Origin: a virus
Lineage: Duplodnaviria > Heunggongvirae > Uroviricota > Caudoviricetes
Reading direction: 5' to 3' (one strand)
DNA: 5,312 nucleotides
IMG/VR virus record: IMGVR_UViG_2713896777_000013
Shown: in pieces, positions 53 through 5,197 of the stretch
Layout: every line of letters begins with the position of its first letter
Numbering within the stretch: position 1 is the stretch's first letter
Translations under genes and position numbers: made by a program
The notes under the pieces: model-generated
Told to the model about the DNA's origin: nothing
What the model saw: the letters and a program-made list of their open reading frames with translations, nothing else
Database searches by the model: none

Positions 53-647
53 ATGGCAACACCAAATCCCCTTGAGCCGGTAAAAGGTGCCGGTACCACT
101 CTGTGGGTTTACAACGGCAAGGGTGATGCTTATGCAAACCCGTTGTCAGACGATGACTGGCAGCGACTGGCTAAGGTGAAGGATCTGACGCCGGGCGAGA
201 TGACGGCAGAANNNNNNNNNNNNNNNNNNNNNNNNNNNNNNNNNNNNNNNNNNNNNNNNNNNNNNNNNNNNNNNNNNNNNNNNNGTGACGGCGAAAGAAG
301 TGATCACCCGCACGGTGAAAGTGACCAACGTGGGCAAACCTTCTGTAGCGGAAGAACGCAGCAAAATTACGCCGGTCACTGCGATTAAGGTGACGCCGAC
401 ATCCGGTACGGTGGCAAAAGGGAAAACAACCACCCTGACGGTTTCTTTTGAGCCGGAAAGTGCAACCGACAAGACGTTCAGAGCGGTTTCCGCCGATCCG
501 TCGAAAGCCACCATTAGTGTGAAAGATATGACAATTACGGTAAACGGCGTGGCGACAGGTAAGGTGCAGATCCCTGTGGTGAGCGGAAATGGTCAGTTCG
601 CCGCAGTGGCTGAAGTCACCGTTACTGAAGCGGGCGCTGCAGGGTAA
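53..647 (+). CDS. V: Major tail tube protein gpV-like, interrupted by an assembly gap (N-run 212-284); C-terminal Ig-like (Big_2-type) domain
   Basis: ATG at 53 preceded by GAGGA (44-48). N-terminal [53 protein letters not shown] is collinear with lambda gpV ([22 protein letters not shown]..). After the gap, [49 protein letters not shown] matches the gpV C-terminal domain; TAA at 645-647. The pre- and post-gap segments are in different frames (2 and 0), so the 73 N is a placeholder of unknown true length. Confidence 0.9.
212..284. other. Assembly gap (73 N) inside gene V
   Basis: Run of N from 212 to 284; the coding frame differs on the two sides. Confidence 0.95.
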
Positions 648-660
648 ACGGAGGTAATAC

Positions 661-1083
661 ATGTTTCTGAAAACAGAACAATTTGAATATAACGGTGTGT
701 CCGTCACGCTTTCCGAATTGTCTGCGCTGCAGCGGTTTGATTATATAAAGTTTGTTTCAGACGCAGAACAACAGGAGACAACGAAGCATGATGTCGTGCA
801 CATTAACCAGCGATATCTGGAAACGGCATCCCTGCTTGTGGCGATGTCGCTATGGCATTCCCATTCCCTCAAAGGCACTCTGGCCTCTCCGGAGACAGAG
901 ATGCAGCAGATCCGCCGTGAAGTGATGCTGGGATGGCCTGCTGATGCACTGAATCAGGCAACGAACCGGGTGCTTTATCTTTCAGGTATGCTGGATAACC
1001 GGCACGATGCCGATCCTGAACAAACCGGGAAAGCAGAAGCGACTGAGCCGGTAACATCAAAAAAGCATTCGAAGGCGAGCTGA
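661..1083 (+). CDS. G: Tail assembly chaperone gpG-like
   Basis: ATG at 661 with GGAGG at 650-654. 140 aa product starting MFLKTEQFEYNGVSVTLSELSALQR.., collinear with lambda gpG (MFLKTESFEHNGVTVTLSELSALQR..); TGA at 1081-1083. Immediately follows V. Confidence 0.92.
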   Translation: MFLKTEQFEYNGVSVTLSELSALQRFDYIKFVSDAEQQETTKHDVVHINQRYLETASLLVAMSLWHSHSLKGTLASPETEMQQIRREVMLGWPADALNQATNRVLYLSGMLDNRHDADPEQTGKAEATEPVTSKKHSKAS

Positions 1084-1523
1084 ACTTTGTCCTGAAACTG
1101 GCGCGAGAGATGGGGAGACCCGACTGGCGCGCCATGCTTGCCGGGATGACATCCACCGAATATGCCGACTGGCGACGTTTTTACTGCACGCATTATTTTC
1201 AGGATACCCAACTGGACGCTCATTTTTCCGGGCTGATGTACGCCGTACTCAGCCTGTTTTTTGGCGATCCGGATATGCATCCGGCGGATTTCAGTCTGCT
1301 TGCTCCAGCGTGTGAGGAAGAGCAGACGGAGATGCCGGACGAGGAAGAAATGCTGATGCAGAAAGCGACAGGAGTTGCCGGAGGCGTCCGGTTCGGAGGG
1401 GACGGAGGGCGCGATATTTCACCTTCTGCGGATGTGGTGGATGTCAGCGAGGATGATGTTGCATTAATGATGGCTTCAGCGGGGATTTCCGGAGGTGTGA
1501 GATATGTCCCAGCCAGCGGGTGA
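661..1523 (+). CDS. T: Tail assembly chaperone G-T fusion, made by programmed -1 ribosomal frameshift near the 3' end of G (G frame 661..~1065, then -1 frame to the stop at 1521-1523)
   Basis: The -1 frame (frame 0) is open from 1047 to TGA at 1521-1523 and encodes ..AFEGELNFVLKLAREMGRPDWRAMLAGMTSTEYADWRRFY.., lambda gpT-like. The T frame has no convincing independent start before the homology begins. Slippery heptamer A_AAA_AAG lies in the G frame at 1059-1065. Predicted fusion about 287 aa. Confidence 0.85.
1059..1065 (+). other. Putative -1 programmed ribosomal frameshift slippery heptamer A_AAA_AAG (G to G-T recoding signal)
   Basis: In the G frame the codons are TCA(1057-1059) AAA(1060-1062) AAG(1063-1065), giving an X_XXY_YYZ heptamer at 1059-1065. 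It is the only such heptamer between the frame-0 stop at 1044-1046 and the G stop at 1081-1083. Confidence 0.7.
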
Positions 1524-4116
1524 TCTGGTTATTGATTTGAGTCTGGATGCGGCCCGGTTTGATGAACAGATGGCCCGGGTACACCGTCATTTTTCCAGTC
1601 TGGAGGCGGATGCCAGAAAAACCGCCAGTACTGTTGAACAGGGGCTGAGCCGACAGGCGCTGGCTGCACAAAAAGCCGGGATATCAGTCGGACAGTATAA
1701 GGCTGCCATGCGCACACTGCCCGCACAGTTCACGGATATTGTCACTCAGCTTGCCGGTGGTCAGAATCCCTTCCTTATCATGCTGCAGCAGGGGGGGCAG
1801 ATCAGCGATTCATTCGGTGGACCGCTCAGCCTGCTTACCCTGCTGAAGGAGGAACTTCTCGGGATCAGGGATGCCTCTGAATCATCAGAGGAGTCGCTGT
1901 CAGATACGGCAAATGCACTGGCTGAAAATGCCCGGAATGCCGGTGAGCTGGGACGATTTATGTCGGTGGCCCGTGTGGCGGCAGGTGGCGGGGTTGCCGT
2001 ACTGGCCGCGCTTGCTGCCGCCGCCTGGCAGGCAGAGCAGGCTGACCGGGCCTTATTGCGTTCACTGATCCTGACCGGAGGGGCGGCTGCCACCACAACG
2101 GCAGAATTGTGGAAAATGGCCGGGGTGATCAGCGATGAAGCCGGTGGTGGTATCAGACAGGCGGCAGAAAATCTGGCCCGTCTGGCAGAAAGCGGGAAAT
2201 ATACCGCCGGGCAGCTACGGATCATGGGGGAAACCTCTCAGAGATGGCTGCAGACGGTGGGGGACGATGCCGGGAAGGTGGAAAAAGCCTTTGAAGGGAT
2301 TGCAGCAGATCCGGTGAAGGCGCTGGCCTCCCTGAATCAGCAGTATAACTTCCTGAGCGTTTCCCAGTTACGCCATATTGATGAGCTTGAGCGCACGAAA
2401 GGTAAACAGGCTGCGGTGACGGAGGCGATGTCCCTGTTTGCGGATGTCATGAATGCACGTCTGGAGCAACTTGATAAAGCGGCCACGCCGGTGGAAAAAA
2501 TCTGGGACGATGTTAAAACCTGGACTTCTGACGCATGGGCATGGATAGGTGATCATACACTGGGGGCACTCAGTCTGATCACTGACGTGGTGGCCGGAAC
2601 CGTTGAACAAGTGAAGCTGCTGCTTGTGCAGGGGGATCTGGCGCTGGCTGAATTTATTCAGTCAGCCTGGGAAACGACAAAGAATGTGCCCGGCGTTGGT
2701 GCGTTGTTTGGTGAACTGGCAGAAGAGAACCGCGTATTTATTGAGAAAACAAAACGCGATGAACTGGCGCTGAGAAAATCCATTGCGGAACGGGATGCGC
2801 GTATACGCCAGGGGGAAATGGGGTACATCAACCGCTCGCGTGCAACAGGCGTCAGCAAAGGTCCTGGGCAGCAGGAAGCCGTCAGCCGTCTGGCTGAAGA
2901 GCTGACAGGTAAAAAGCATACATCACCGAAAACGCGCTCTGCCGGGGAGAGGGAAGAGGAGCAGGCAAGAGAGGCTCTGCTTGCCCTTGAAGCTGAGCTC
3001 AGGACGCTGGAAAAACACAGCGGTGCGAATGAGAAAATCAGTCGGCAGCGCCGTGATTTATGGAAGGCGGAAAGTCAGTATGCGGTCCTGAAAGAGGCTG
3101 CCACGAAACGGCAGTTATCCTGGCAGGAAAAATCCCTGCTGGCCCATGAGAAAGAGACGCTGGAGTACAAACGCCAGCTGGCTGACCTGGGCGACAAGGT
3201 TGAACACCAGAAACGCCTGAATGAGCTGGCACAGCAGGCGGTGCGGTTTGAAGAGCAGCAGAGCGCGAAGCAGGCCGCCATCAGCGCAAAAGCCCGCGGT
3301 CTCACTGACCGTCAGGCGCAGCGGGAGTCTGAAGCGCAGCGTCTTCGGGACGTGTACGGTGATAATCCGCAGGCGCTGGCCCGGGTCACTGGGGCACTGA
3401 AACAGACATGGGCGGATGAAGACATGCTGCGCGGTGACTGGCTGGCCGGGCTGAAGTCCGGCTGGGGGGAGTGGGCGGAAAGTGCGACGGACAGTTTTTC
3501 GCAGGTTAAAAGTGCTGCCACGCAGACCTTTGACGGTATTGCACAGAATATGGCGGCGATGCTGACCGGTGCAGAGGCAGACTGGCGGGGATTCACCCGT
3601 TCGGTGCTGTCCATGATGACAGAAATCCTGCTTAAACAGGCCATGGTGGGCATTGTCGGGCGTATCGGCAGCGCCATTGGCGGTGCTTTCGGTGGTGGTG
3701 CATCTGCTTCCTCGGGGACGGCCATTGAGGCTGCGGCGGCGAACTTCCATTTCGCGACCGGAGGATTTACGGGGACGGGCGGCAAATATGAGCCTGCGGG
3801 GATAGTTCACCGCGGGGAGTTTGTTTTCACGAAAGAGGCAACCAGCCGGATAGGTGTGGGGAATCTTTACCGTCTGATGCGCGGCTATGCGGAAGGTGGT
3901 TATGTGGGTGGTGCCGGAAGTCCGGCGCAGATGCGGCGGGCGGAAGGTATTAATTTTAATCAGAACAATCACGTGGTGATTCAGAACGACGGTATCAACG
4001 GACAGGCGGGGCCGCAGCTGATGAAGGCGGTGTATGACATGGCCCGCAAGGGGGCGCAGGATGAGATTCAGGCGCAGATGCGTGATGGCGGCGTCTTTTC
4101 CGGAGGCAGGCGATGA
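1504..4116 (+). CDS. H: Tail tape measure protein gpH-like (870 aa)
   Basis: ATG at 1504 with GGAGG at 1491-1495. N-terminus MSQPAGDLVIDLSLDAARFDEQMARVHRHF.. and C-terminal third (..ALLALEAELRTLEKHSGANEKISRQRRDLWKAESQ....GGKYEPAGIVHRGEFVFTKEATSRIGVGNLYRLMRGYA..QMRDGGVFSGGRR) are collinear with recalled lambda gpH. Overlaps the end of T by 20 nt; TGA at 4114-4116. Confidence 0.95.
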   Translation: MSQPAGDLVIDLSLDAARFDEQMARVHRHFSSLEADARKTASTVEQGLSRQALAAQKAGISVGQYKAAMRTLPAQFTDIVTQLAGGQNPFLIMLQQGGQISDSFGGPLSLLTLLKEELLGIRDASESSEESLSDTANALAENARNAGELGRFMSVARVAAGGGVAVLAALAAAAWQAEQADRALLRSLILTGGAAATTTAELWKMAGVISDEAGGGIRQAAENLARLAESGKYTAGQLRIMGETSQRWLQTVGDDAGKVEKAFEGIAADPVKALASLNQQYNFLSVSQLRHIDELERTKGKQAAVTEAMSLFADVMNARLEQLDKAATPVEKIWDDVKTWTSDAWAWIGDHTLGALSLITDVVAGTVEQVKLLLVQGDLALAEFIQSAWETTKNVPGVGALFGELAEENRVFIEKTKRDELALRKSIAERDARIRQGEMGYINRSRATGVSKGPGQQEAVSRLAEELTGKKHTSPKTRSAGEREEEQAREALLALEAELRTLEKHSGANEKISRQRRDLWKAESQYAVLKEAATKRQLSWQEKSLLAHEKETLEYKRQLADLGDKVEHQKRLNELAQQAVRFEEQQSAKQAAISAKARGLTDRQAQRESEAQRLRDVYGDNPQALARVTGALKQTWADEDMLRGDWLAGLKSGWGEWAESATDSFSQVKSAATQTFDGIAQNMAAMLTGAEADWRGFTRSVLSMMTEILLKQAMVGIVGRIGSAIGGAFGGGASASSGTAIEAAAANFHFATGGFTGTGGKYEPAGIVHRGEFVFTKEATSRIGVGNLYRLMRGYAEGGYVGGAGSPAQMRRAEGINFNQNNHVVIQNDGINGQAGPQLMKAVYDMARKGAQDEIQAQMRDGGVFSGGRR

Positions 4117-4442
4117 AAACATTTCGCTGGAAAGTGAAGCCGGATATGGAGGTGAACTCGCAGCCATCGGTGCGTGAAGTGCGTTTTGGTGACGGGTACT
4201 CACAGCGTATGGCGGCAGGGCTGAATGCTGACCTGAAAACATACCGTGTGACGCTTTCCGTGACCCGGGAGGAGGCCCGGCATCTGGAAGCGTTCCTGGC
4301 AGAGCACGGAGGCTGGAAGGCATTTTTGTGGAAGCCACCCTATGCATACCGGCAGATAAAGGTGACCTGTGCCGGGTGGTCTGCGCGGGTCGGGATGTTG
4401 CGCGTTGAGTTCAGCGCGGAGTTTAAGCAGGTGGTGAACTGA
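4113..4442 (+). CDS. M: Minor tail protein gpM-like
   Basis: ATG at 4113 overlaps the H stop (ATGA); GGAGG at 4102-4106. 109 aa MKTFRWKVKPDMEVNSQPSVREVRFGDGYSQR...RVEFSAEFKQVVN is near-identical in pattern to lambda gpM. Confidence 0.95.
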   Translation: MKTFRWKVKPDMEVNSQPSVREVRFGDGYSQRMAAGLNADLKTYRVTLSVTREEARHLEAFLAEHGGWKAFLWKPPYAYRQIKVTCAGWSARVGMLRVEFSAEFKQVVN

Positions 4443-5197
4443 TGCAGGATATTCACGAAGAAAGTCTGAACGNNNNNNNNNNNNNNNNNNNNNNNNNNNN
4501 NNNNNNNNNNNNNNNNNNNNNNCTGAACGAGTCGGTTAAATCAGAGCAGTCACCGCGGGTGGTACTCTGGGAAATCGACCTGACGGTACAGGGTGGTGAG
4601 CGGTATTTTTTCTGCAATGAGCTGAATGAAAAAGGGGAGGCGGTTACCTGGCAGGGGCGGCAATATCAGGCATACCCGATTGACGGCAGTGGCTTTGAGA
4701 TGAACGGGAAGGGCAGCAGTGCCNGNCCGTCGCTGACGGTGTCGAATCTGTTNGGTCTGGTCACCGGNATGGCGGAGGACCTGCAGAGCCTGGTGGGGGC
4801 CACGGTGGTCCGCCGCCGGGTGTATGCGCGTTTTCTGGATGCGGTGAATTTCGTTGCGGGCAATCCGGAGGCGGACCCGGAGCAGGAGCTGAGTGACCGC
4901 TGGGTGGTGGAGCAGATGTCGCAGCTGACAGCCATGACGGCCTCGTTTGTGCTGGCTACACCGACCGAGACGGATGGGGCGCTGTTTCCCGGTCGCATCA
5001 TGCTGGCGAACACCTGTATGTGGGATTACCGGGGAGATGAATGCGGGTATAACGGTCCTGCGGTGGCGGATGAGTTCGATAAACCCACCACCGATATCCG
5101 TAAGGACAGATGCAGCAAGTGCATGCGCGGGTGTGAGATGCGCGGCATGGTGGCTAATTTTGGCGGTTTCCTTTCCATTAACAAACTTTCGCAGTAA
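4442..5197 (+). CDS. L: Minor tail protein gpL-like (tail tip; conserved C-terminal Cys cluster), containing a 50-N assembly gap and four ambiguous bases
   Basis: ATG at 4442 overlaps the M stop (TGATG); AGGTGG at 4429-4434. MQDIHEESLN..VVLWEIDLTVQGGERYFFCNE..GRIMLANTCMWDYRGDECGY..FGGFLSINKLSQ is collinear with lambda gpL; TAA at 5195-5197. With the N-run and the duplicated 7 bp removed the product would be about 232 aa, as in lambda. Confidence 0.93.
   Translation: MQDIHEESLNXXXXXXXXXXXXXXXXXLNESVKSEQSPRVVLWEIDLTVQGGERYFFCNELNEKGEAVTWQGRQYQAYPIDGSGFEMNGKGSSAXPSLTVSNLXGLVTXMAEDLQSLVGATVVRRRVYARFLDAVNFVAGNPEADPEQELSDRWVVEQMSQLTAMTASFVLATPTETDGALFPGRIMLANTCMWDYRGDECGYNGPAVADEFDKPTTDIRKDRCSKCMRGCEMRGMVANFGGFLSINKLSQ
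4473..4522. other. Assembly gap (50 N) inside gene L, flanked by a duplicated 7-bp CTGAACG
   Basis: Run of N from 4473 to 4522; CTGAACG occurs at 4466-4472 and again at 4523-4529. Confidence 0.95.

What the first reader, a model, noticed from the sequence alone, without database searches (positions are those of the whole stretch)
1059..1065. G-T frameshift appears to use A_AAA_AAG rather than the lambda-type G_GGA_AAG
The gpT-like frame has no independent start before the homology begins, and it is -1 relative to G. The only X_XXY_YYZ heptamer in the permissive interval (after the -1 frame TGA at 1044-1046, before the G stop at 1081) is A_AAA_AAG at 1059-1065. This is the same class of highly slippery site used by E. 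coli dnaX. The predicted fusion junction is ..PVTSKK/AFEGELNFVLKLAREMGRPDW.., so this phage seems to have re-placed the conserved G-T recoding signal.
Basis: partly seen in the sequence, partly recalled or inferred. Interest (0 to 1): 0.55.

Follow-up and report, generated by a model that had tools for sequence, protein, structure and literature searches.

The report
Known A_AAA_AAG variant of G-T frameshift
This lambda-like E. coli prophage makes its tail-assembly fusion protein by a -1 ribosomal slip at A_AAA_AAG instead of lambda's G_GGA_AAG, at exactly the same spot, and this variant is common and was already catalogued for the close relative VT1-Sakai, so it is ordinary.

Summary
A_AAA_AAG at 1059-1065 is in the X_XXY_YYZ phase of gene G (661-1083). 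It is the only such heptamer in G and in the permissive interval 1047-1080. The T frame is -1 and has no start codon before ATG 1110.

The signal has not been re-placed. It starts 22 nt before the G stop, exactly as in lambda, and the predicted 287-aa fusion aligns without a gap to lambda gpGT through the junction. Only the first three bases differ, so the P-site codon is AAA instead of GGA.

In 139 related loci the same position carries GGGAAAG (69), AAAAAAG (34), GGAAAAG (31) or rarer forms. The A-site A_AAR is the constant part.

Published reporter data give the two heptamers equal efficiency in E. coli in the same contexts. The dnaX-type stimulators are not evident here.

The window is 99.7-100% identical to Stx1a phages and to prophages in over 500 complete E. 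coli genomes. Lynch et al. 2012, citing Xu, Hendrix and Duda 2004, already list AAAAAAG as the site of phage VT1-Sakai, which is 95% identical here.

Verdict: real programmed frameshift site, already known, low interest.

The parts
53..647 (+). Major tail protein V gene (partly N-masked at 212-284), directly upstream of G
   Evidence: The C-terminal part matches Big_2 (PF02368, E 1.2e-19). The homologous gene is annotated V in VT1-Sakai and PhiR12_2_star.
661..1083 (+). Gene G, tail assembly chaperone (140 aa), the zero frame of the recoding event
   Evidence: PF06894 Phage_TAC_2, E 6.5e-35. Annotated gpG in RefSeq E. coli genomes. 99% identical to 'phage tail assembly chaperone G' clusters.
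1044..1046 (+). Last stop codon (TGA) in the -1 (T) frame; 5' limit of the interval in which a shift can give a long product
   Evidence: List of frame stops.
1059..1065 (+). Slip site A_AAA_AAG (P-site AAA, A-site AAG, both read by tRNA-Lys)
   Evidence: for sequence and phase. Same position as lambda G_GGA_AAG. The columns for bases 1062-1064 (AAA) are invariant in 50 distinct relatives.
1065..1523 (+). T-frame coding segment (-1 frame) read after the shift, to the TGA at 1521-1523. With G codons 1-135 it gives a 287-aa gpGT.
   Evidence: PF06223 Phage_tail_T, E 1.3e-11. Gapless alignment to lambda gpGT, E 2e-112. Third-position variability in the T frame between the G stop and ATG 1110.
1110..1112 (+). 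ATG used by annotators as the start of a separate 137-aa 'T' protein; probably just an internal Met codon
   Evidence: Annotated as a separate CDS in Sakai and E2865. This codon is Phe or Leu in most relatives. No spaced SD precedes it (GCGAGAG abuts the ATG).
1074..1142 (+). Predicted RNA structure 8 nt 3' of the slip site: outer stem 1074-1080/1136-1142 enclosing hairpin 1099-1114/1119-1134. Possible weak stimulator, not established.
   Evidence: MFE fold, z -2.39 against dinucleotide shuffles. The same fold appears in lambda. Against synonymous-codon resampling z is only -1.15. 80% of cells are paired across 50 relatives with some covariation, but RNAalifold does not recover the structure.
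1504..4116 (+). Tape measure gene H (870 aa); its start overlaps the end of T. It encodes the binding partner of gpG and gpGT.
   Evidence: PF06791 and PF09718. Annotated as tape measure in relatives.

Best explanation
This is the programmed -1 ribosomal frameshift site of a lambda-type G-T tail assembly chaperone pair.

Most ribosomes translate G (661-1083) to its stop and make the 140-aa chaperone. A few percent slip back one base. This happens when tRNA-Lys occupies AAA (1060-1062) in the P site and tRNA-Lys occupies AAG (1063-1065) in the A site. Both re-pair with AAA AAA (1059-1064), and translation continues with GCA (1065-1067) in the T frame to 1523. The product is a 287-aa gpGT with junction ..TSKK/AFEGEL..

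By homology with lambda, the G part binds the tape measure protein H and the T part recruits the major tail protein V. The low shift rate sets a high G:GT ratio.

Shown here: the anatomy, the phase, the homologous position, and that the T-frame segment between the slip site and ATG 1110 evolves as coding sequence. Inferred from lambda and from reporter studies: the slip itself, its rate and the protein roles.

Relative to lambda, only the P-site codon differs (AAA Lys for GGA Gly). The A-site A_AAG core, which is constant across the family, is unchanged.
For: - The heptamer is in phase and unique in the permissive interval.
- G matches PF06894 and T matches PF06223, and they lie between V and H.
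- The heptamer starts 22 nt before the G stop in all 83 close loci, whether AAAAAAG or GGGAAAG.
- At the fixed position in 139 loci: GGGAAAG 69, AAAAAAG 34, GGAAAAG 31, others 5.
- Alignment columns 24-26 (AAA) are invariant, and Lys135 is invariant in G proteins.
- The fusion aligns gaplessly with lambda gpGT across the junction.
- T-frame third positions carry most of the variation both before and after ATG 1110: entropy 1.19 against 0.55 and 0.47.
- The Met at 1110 is Phe or Leu in most relatives.
- In E. coli reporters, A_AAA_AAG gives 0.29 / 4.3 / 39 % and G_GGA_AAG gives 0.28 / 3.8 / 43 % shifting in three matched contexts (PMC4066793 Table S3).
- Lambda G-T shifts at G_GGA_AAG about 4% of the time and depends on tRNA-Lys U34 modification (PMC3296357; PMC5009743).
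- AAAAAAG is listed as the site of VT1-Sakai (PMC3483164 citing Xu 2004). VT1-Sakai carries the same sequence.
Against: There is no direct protein or reporter evidence for this particular phage. Without stimulators both heptamers gave only about 0.3% in reporters, so a few-percent rate needs some context effect that I could not pin down. No SD-like sequence lies upstream. The downstream fold is not significant once the coding constraint is controlled.
Confidence: 0.9

Rival explanations
1. T is made as an independent 137-aa protein from ATG 1110, as RefSeq and GenBank annotate it, and the heptamer is incidental.
For: Separate G and T CDS are annotated in Sakai Sp11, E2865, VT1-Sakai and PhiR12_2_star. 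An ATG exists at 1110.
Against: T-frame protein similarity to lambda, and codon-periodic conservation, extend 45 nt upstream of the ATG to the heptamer. The ATG codon is Phe or Leu in most relatives, which then have no start at all. GAGAG abuts the ATG with no spacing. The slip motif is conserved at a fixed position.
Confidence: 0.04
2. The frame change is made by RNA polymerase slippage on the A6 run (an extra A in some transcripts), not by the ribosome.
For: A homopolymeric run of six A is present. An inserted A would give the same protein sequence.
Against: Relatives keep the shift at the same position with runs of only three or four A (GGGAAAG, GGAAAAG). That is too short for productive slippage, which from general knowledge usually needs about 8-9 or more A/T. 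The phase-specific X_XXY_YYZ arrangement and the invariant Lys A-site codon fit ribosomal slippage.
Confidence: 0.03
3. Only the A-site tRNA-Lys slips (an A_AAG tetramer event). The identity of the upstream three bases is nearly irrelevant, so the AAA/GGG difference is neutral drift linked to the G allele.
For: The constant part of the family motif is A_AAR. The P-site codon varies among GGA, AAA, GAA and GCA, and GGAAAAG is not an XXXYYYZ heptamer. A_AAG alone gives 5.6% with a pseudoknot (PMC4066793 Table S2).
Against: In the reporter data the full heptamers reach about 40%, against about 5.6% for the tetramer with strong stimulators. These were different constructs. P-site re-pairing therefore normally adds to the effect. 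This rival refines the best explanation rather than replacing it.
Confidence: 0.25

Closest known systems
Bacteriophage lambda G / G-T programmed -1 frameshift (Levin, Hendrix & Casjens 1993)
   Same: - Same gene order V-G-T-H.
- Same protein families (PF06894, PF06223).
- Same -1 direction.
- The heptamer starts 22 nt before the G stop in both.
- Same A-site codon AAG.
- The fusion is 57% identical overall and colinear through the junction.
   Different: The first three bases are AAA, not GGG. The P-site tRNA is therefore tRNA-Lys instead of tRNA-Gly, and the fusion has Lys-Lys instead of Gly-Lys at the junction.
Phage VT1-Sakai (Sakai prophage Sp15) G-T, listed with slip site AAAAAAG by Xu, Hendrix & Duda 2004 as cited in PMC3483164
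   Same: 94.9% nucleotide identity over G and the start of T. Identical TCAAAAAAGCAT context, and identical G C-terminus ..EPVTSKKHSKAS.
   Different: A few substitutions elsewhere in G and T. The T 3' end and H differ, because the match stops at about 810 of 961 nt. The window is closer still to Sakai Sp11 and Stx1a phages, at 99.7-100%.
E. coli dnaX tau/gamma frameshift
   Same: The same heptamer, A_AAA_AAG, read by the single E. coli tRNA-Lys (PMC5009743; PMC3711429).
   Different: dnaX has an upstream SD-like stimulator and a downstream hairpin, and shifts about 50% of the time to a shorter product. Here no SD-like element is seen, the downstream structure is unproven, the product is longer, and by analogy with lambda the rate should be a few percent.
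HK97-like tail assembly chaperone of Sakai prophage Sp9 (ECs1801; cluster A_AAA_AAG_25 of Sharma et al. 2014; 6-7% measured by Antonov et al. 2013)
   Same: A tail chaperone gene upstream of the tape measure gene, with an in-phase A_AAA_AAG and a -1 extension.
   Different: It is an unrelated protein family: BLASTP against the window's G gives E 1.2. The heptamer abuts the stop codon (AAAAAAG TAG).

Membership tests
Lambda-type G/G-T tail assembly chaperone with programmed -1 frameshift | The upstream ORF is a gpG-family chaperone | tested here: met
   PF06894, E 6.5e-35, covering residues 1-123 of 140. 45-48% identity to lambda-type G proteins over the full length.
Lambda-type G/G-T tail assembly chaperone with programmed -1 frameshift | The downstream ORF is a gpT-family domain in the -1 frame, overlapping the end of G, with no start of its own at the point where similarity begins | tested here: met
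   PF06223, E 1.3e-11. The -1 frame is open over 1047-1520. The first start codon is at 1110. Similarity to lambda begins at 1065.
Lambda-type G/G-T tail assembly chaperone with programmed -1 frameshift | Located between the major tail gene and the tape measure gene | tested here: met
   V 53-647, G 661-1083, T to 1523, H 1504-4116.
Lambda-type G/G-T tail assembly chaperone with programmed -1 frameshift | In-phase slippery heptamer in the G/T overlap at the conserved position | tested here: met
   A_AAA_AAG at 1059-1065, 22 nt before the G stop, as in lambda.
Lambda-type G/G-T tail assembly chaperone with programmed -1 frameshift | A G-T fusion protein is actually made at a low percentage and is needed for tail assembly | not testable with these tools
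   This needs protein expression, mass spectrometry or genetics. It is known for lambda only (PMC5009743; PMC3296357).
dnaX-type stimulated A_AAA_AAG frameshift signal | A_AAA_AAG heptamer in phase | tested here: met
dnaX-type stimulated A_AAA_AAG frameshift signal | SD-like stimulator 6-17 nt upstream of the heptamer | tested here: not met
   1039-1058 reads GCGACTGAGCCGGTAACATC and has no GGAG, GAGG or AGGA. Sharma et al. also record no SD for either phage chaperone cluster.
dnaX-type stimulated A_AAA_AAG frameshift signal | Stable hairpin about 5-9 nt downstream that is conserved beyond what coding requires | tested here: inconclusive
   A stem starting 8 nt downstream is predicted in the window and in lambda, and 80% of cells are paired in 50 relatives. 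Against synonymous resampling z is -1.15 and -1.76, and RNAalifold does not find the structure.

The most novel reading that the evidence does not exclude
The AAA-for-GGA swap may not be neutral. Both slipping tRNAs are now the s2U34-modified tRNA-Lys. The G:GT ratio of this large group of EHEC prophages could therefore respond more steeply than lambda's to host tRNA thiolation or sulfur status. The partly covarying long-range stem that starts 8 nt downstream (1074-1080/1136-1142) could be a shared, so far undescribed stimulator of G-T shifting in the lambda family.
Probability: 0.12. Interest if true: 0.35.

Novelty: already known. Interest (0 to 1): 0.1.

Why it matters
The practical value is for annotation. 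GenBank and RefSeq records of this prophage family list G and a truncated 137-aa 'T' as separate genes, with no ribosomal-slippage join. The real product is very probably a 287-aa G-T fusion.

Biologically, it shows that the lambda family tolerates several P-site codons at a fixed slip position while keeping the A_AAG Lys core. This agrees with published reporter data that A_AAA_AAG and G_GGA_AAG are equivalent in E. coli. It opens no new question.

Tried and rejected
- **Relocated signal.** I tested whether the site had moved relative to lambda. It has not: same distance to the G stop and a gapless fusion alignment.
- **Out-of-phase GGGAAAG at 1027-1033.** I asked whether it could be a displaced lambda-type site. 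It is in the GGG_AAA_G phase, is followed by the T-frame stop at 1044, and reads GGGAAAA in VT1-Sakai. Rejected.
- **Sharma et al. cluster A_AAA_AAG_25 (ECs1801).** I first took it to be this gene. It is in Sakai Sp9 and belongs to an unrelated HK97-like chaperone family. It supports the use of this heptamer in tail chaperones generally, not this family.
- **Stimulators.** No SD-like element was found. The downstream fold looked good against dinucleotide shuffles but not against synonymous resampling, and RNAalifold did not recover it. Left as inconclusive.
- **Primary papers.** I tried to read Xu et al. 2004 and Xu et al. 2013 directly. Neither is held, so the VT1-Sakai listing rests on the citation in PMC3483164.

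Full report
**What the window is.** The 5312 bases hold a lambda-type tail module on the + strand:

| Gene | Coordinates | Note |
|---|---|---|
| V | 53-647 | partly N-masked |
| G | 661-1083 | zero frame |
| T | -1 frame, open 1047-1523 | read after the shift |
| H (tape measure) | 1504-4116 | overlaps the end of T |
| M | 4113-4442 | |
| L | 4442-5197 | |
| next gene | starts after 5197 | |

Pfam assigns G to PF06894 (E 6.5e-35), the T frame to PF06223 (E 1.3e-11), H to PF06791 and PF09718, and M to PF05939.

The G-T stretch is 99.7-99.9% identical to ten Stx1a-converting phages. It is 99.8-100% identical to prophages in E. coli O157:H7 Sakai (Sp11), O111, O145 and O104:H4. In 511 of the 20,395 E. 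coli records searched, the best match is at least 99% identical.

**The observation.** Positions 1059-1065 are AAAAAAG. The G codons there are TCA AAA AAG, so the phase is A_AAA_AAG. It is the only in-phase X_XXY_YYZ in G.

The -1 frame has its last stop at 1044-1046 and then runs to 1521-1523. The G stop is at 1081-1083. The first possible start codon in the -1 frame is ATG 1110.

With codons drawn from the window's own usage, an 11-codon interval contains any in-phase heptamer with probability 0.036. It contains an X_XXA_AAG with probability 0.0023.

**Same place as lambda, not re-placed.**
- Lambda reads TCT GCG GGA AAG TGT TCG ACG GTG AGC TGA.
- The window reads ACA TCA AAA AAG CAT TCG AAG GCG AGC TGA.

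In the window, in lambda and in 81 further close loci, the heptamer starts 22 nt before the G stop. This holds whether it is AAAAAAG (32 loci plus the window) or GGGAAAG.

The fusion built by a -1 slip at 1065 is 287 aa. It aligns to lambda gpGT with E 2e-112 and 57% identity, with no gap near the junction..EPVTSKK/AFEGEL.. against ..EPVSAGK/VFDGEL...

The difference is a three-base substitution. It changes the P-site codon from GGA (Gly) to AAA (Lys) and the wobble base of the preceding codon.

**The family view.** I collected relatives from IMG/VR and from species-dereplicated genomes. At the fixed position, 39 nt 5' of the conserved LARE motif, 139 loci (58 distinct sequences) carry:

| Sequence at the slip position | Loci |
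|---|---|
| GGGAAAG | 69 |
| AAAAAAG | 34 |
| GGAAAAG | 31 |
| GGCAAAA followed by TAG | 3 |
| AGAAAAG | 1 |
| GGGAAAA followed by TAG | 1 |

The three A's at heptamer positions 4-6 are invariant in 50 distinct sequences, and Lys135 is invariant in G proteins.

The Lys-Lys form occurs in at least two G sub-lineages, of 140 aa and 138 aa. The constant element is therefore the A-site A_AAR read by tRNA-Lys, and the P-site codon is free to vary. Lambda's G_GGA_AAG is one variant among several, not the family's conserved signal.

**T is read only as a fusion.**
- Between the G stop and ATG 1110, variation across relatives is concentrated at T-frame third positions. Entropy is 0.55, 0.47 and 1.19 for codon positions 1, 2 and 3. 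Downstream of the ATG the pattern is the same: 0.58, 0.37 and 1.21.
- The Met codon at 1110 is Phe or Leu in most relatives (LAREF..). Those relatives have no start codon at all in the T frame.
- GAGAG abuts ATG 1110 without a spacer.

Database records nevertheless annotate a separate T from this ATG, with no slippage join.

**Mechanism and efficiency.** E. coli has a single tRNA-Lys (mnm5s2UUU). It pairs better with AAA than with AAG, which is why A_AAG is shift-prone (PMC5009743). Lambda G-T shifting is about 4% and rises when tRNA-Lys is hypomodified (PMC3296357; PMC7618472).

Sharma et al. 2014 measured all 64 heptamers in E. coli (PMC4066793 Table S3):

| Heptamer | No stimulator | IS911 stimulator | IS3 stimulator |
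|---|---|---|---|
| A_AAA_AAG | 0.29% | 4.3% | 39% |
| G_GGA_AAG | 0.28% | 3.8% | 43% |

The two heptamers are functionally equivalent in matched contexts. The swap is therefore expected to leave the G:GT ratio about unchanged.

**Stimulators.** No SD-like sequence lies 6-17 nt upstream. Sharma et al. likewise record none for either phage chaperone cluster.

Downstream, an outer stem (1074-1080 with 1136-1142) starts 8 nt after the heptamer. It encloses a hairpin (1099-1114 with 1119-1134). This is the minimum-energy fold, with z -2.39 against dinucleotide shuffles, and lambda folds the same way.

Across 50 relatives, 80% of cells pair, with some double changes such as G-C to A-U at the outermost pair. 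Three things weaken this:
- The sequences with the double changes appear to come from one group of relatives. I judged this from the sequences; no tree was built.
- RNAalifold does not recover the fold.
- Against resampling of synonymous codons, the native energy is unremarkable: z -1.15 for the window and -1.76 for lambda.

I leave this as inconclusive.

**Prior knowledge.** Lynch et al. [quoted passage not shown] They cite Xu, Hendrix & Duda 2004 for this (PMC3483164).

VT1-Sakai (AP000400) is 94.9% identical to the window over G and the start of T. It has the identical TCAAAAAAGCAT context.

A_AAA_AAG is also a recognised site in another tail chaperone family, the HK97-like ECs1801 of Sakai Sp9. 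That site is marked 'true' by Sharma et al., and Antonov et al. 2013 measured 6-7% shifting for the HK97-like chaperone cluster that Sharma et al. equate with it. I could not open Xu et al. 2004 itself.

**Verdict.** The site is real and almost certainly functional, but it is a known and common allele of a textbook recoding signal. It sits at the canonical position and its expected efficiency equals that of the lambda form. Novelty: already known. Interest: low.

Noticed in passing
window 1027-1033: A lambda-like GGGAAAG lies 32 nt upstream of the real site, but in the GGG_AAA_G phase. It is followed by the T-frame stop at 1044. It reads GGGAAAA in VT1-Sakai, so it looks like a coincidence rather than a relic.
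   Followed up: yes
L103-L145 (genome-contig loci), at the position homologous to window 1059-1065: Most non-E. coli Enterobacterales (Kluyvera, Enterobacter, Citrobacter, Proteus, Providencia and others) carry G_GAA_AAG at the slip position. This is not an X_XXY_YYZ heptamer: the P-site tRNA-Glu would re-pair with GGA. A few carry GGC_AAA_A or GGG_AAA_A directly before the G stop TAG, which implies a P-site slip next to a stop codon.
   Followed up: partly
L088-L100, L125, L129 (genome contigs): Short, roughly 1x-coverage contigs assigned to Neobacillus, Kitasatospora, Shewanella, Pseudomonas, Paenibacillus and others share lambda's sequence through the G-T junction and show the same 43% identity to the query. 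They look like lambda control-DNA contamination of those assemblies.
   Followed up: no
L038 (IMG/VR contig), junction region homologous to window 1059-1110: A mosaic: the 3' end of G with GGGAAAG is of the PhiR12 type, but the sequence immediately after the heptamer (TCTTCGAAGGCGAGCTGAACTTTGTCCTGAAACTGGCGCGAGAG) is of the window type. A recombination boundary therefore lies at or next to the slip site. Protein P0010 is likewise a G mosaic, with a lambda-like N-terminal half and a window-like C-terminal end.
   Followed up: no
L084 20002-20376 (Sakai prophage Sp9, ECs_1801): An unrelated HK97-like tail chaperone in the same kind of host also uses an in-phase A_AAA_AAG, here abutting its stop codon (AGA AAA AAG TAG). 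The -1 ORF continues into the gene annotated as ECs_1802.
   Followed up: partly
window 1791-1797 and 4606-4612: Two other in-phase heptamers sit inside long genes: G_GGG_GGG in H and T_TTT_TTC in L. Both are poor shifters in the published E. coli tables. I did not check the -1 frames behind them.
   Followed up: no
window 212-284, 4473-4522, and single Ns at 4724-4768: Runs of N interrupt V and L, and isolated Ns occur in L. They do not touch the G-T region.
   Followed up: no
L086 3344-5863 (E. coli E2865, NZ_AP018808): In this genome, which is 100% identical over G-T, the adjacent tape measure gene is annotated as a frameshifted pseudogene.
   Followed up: no
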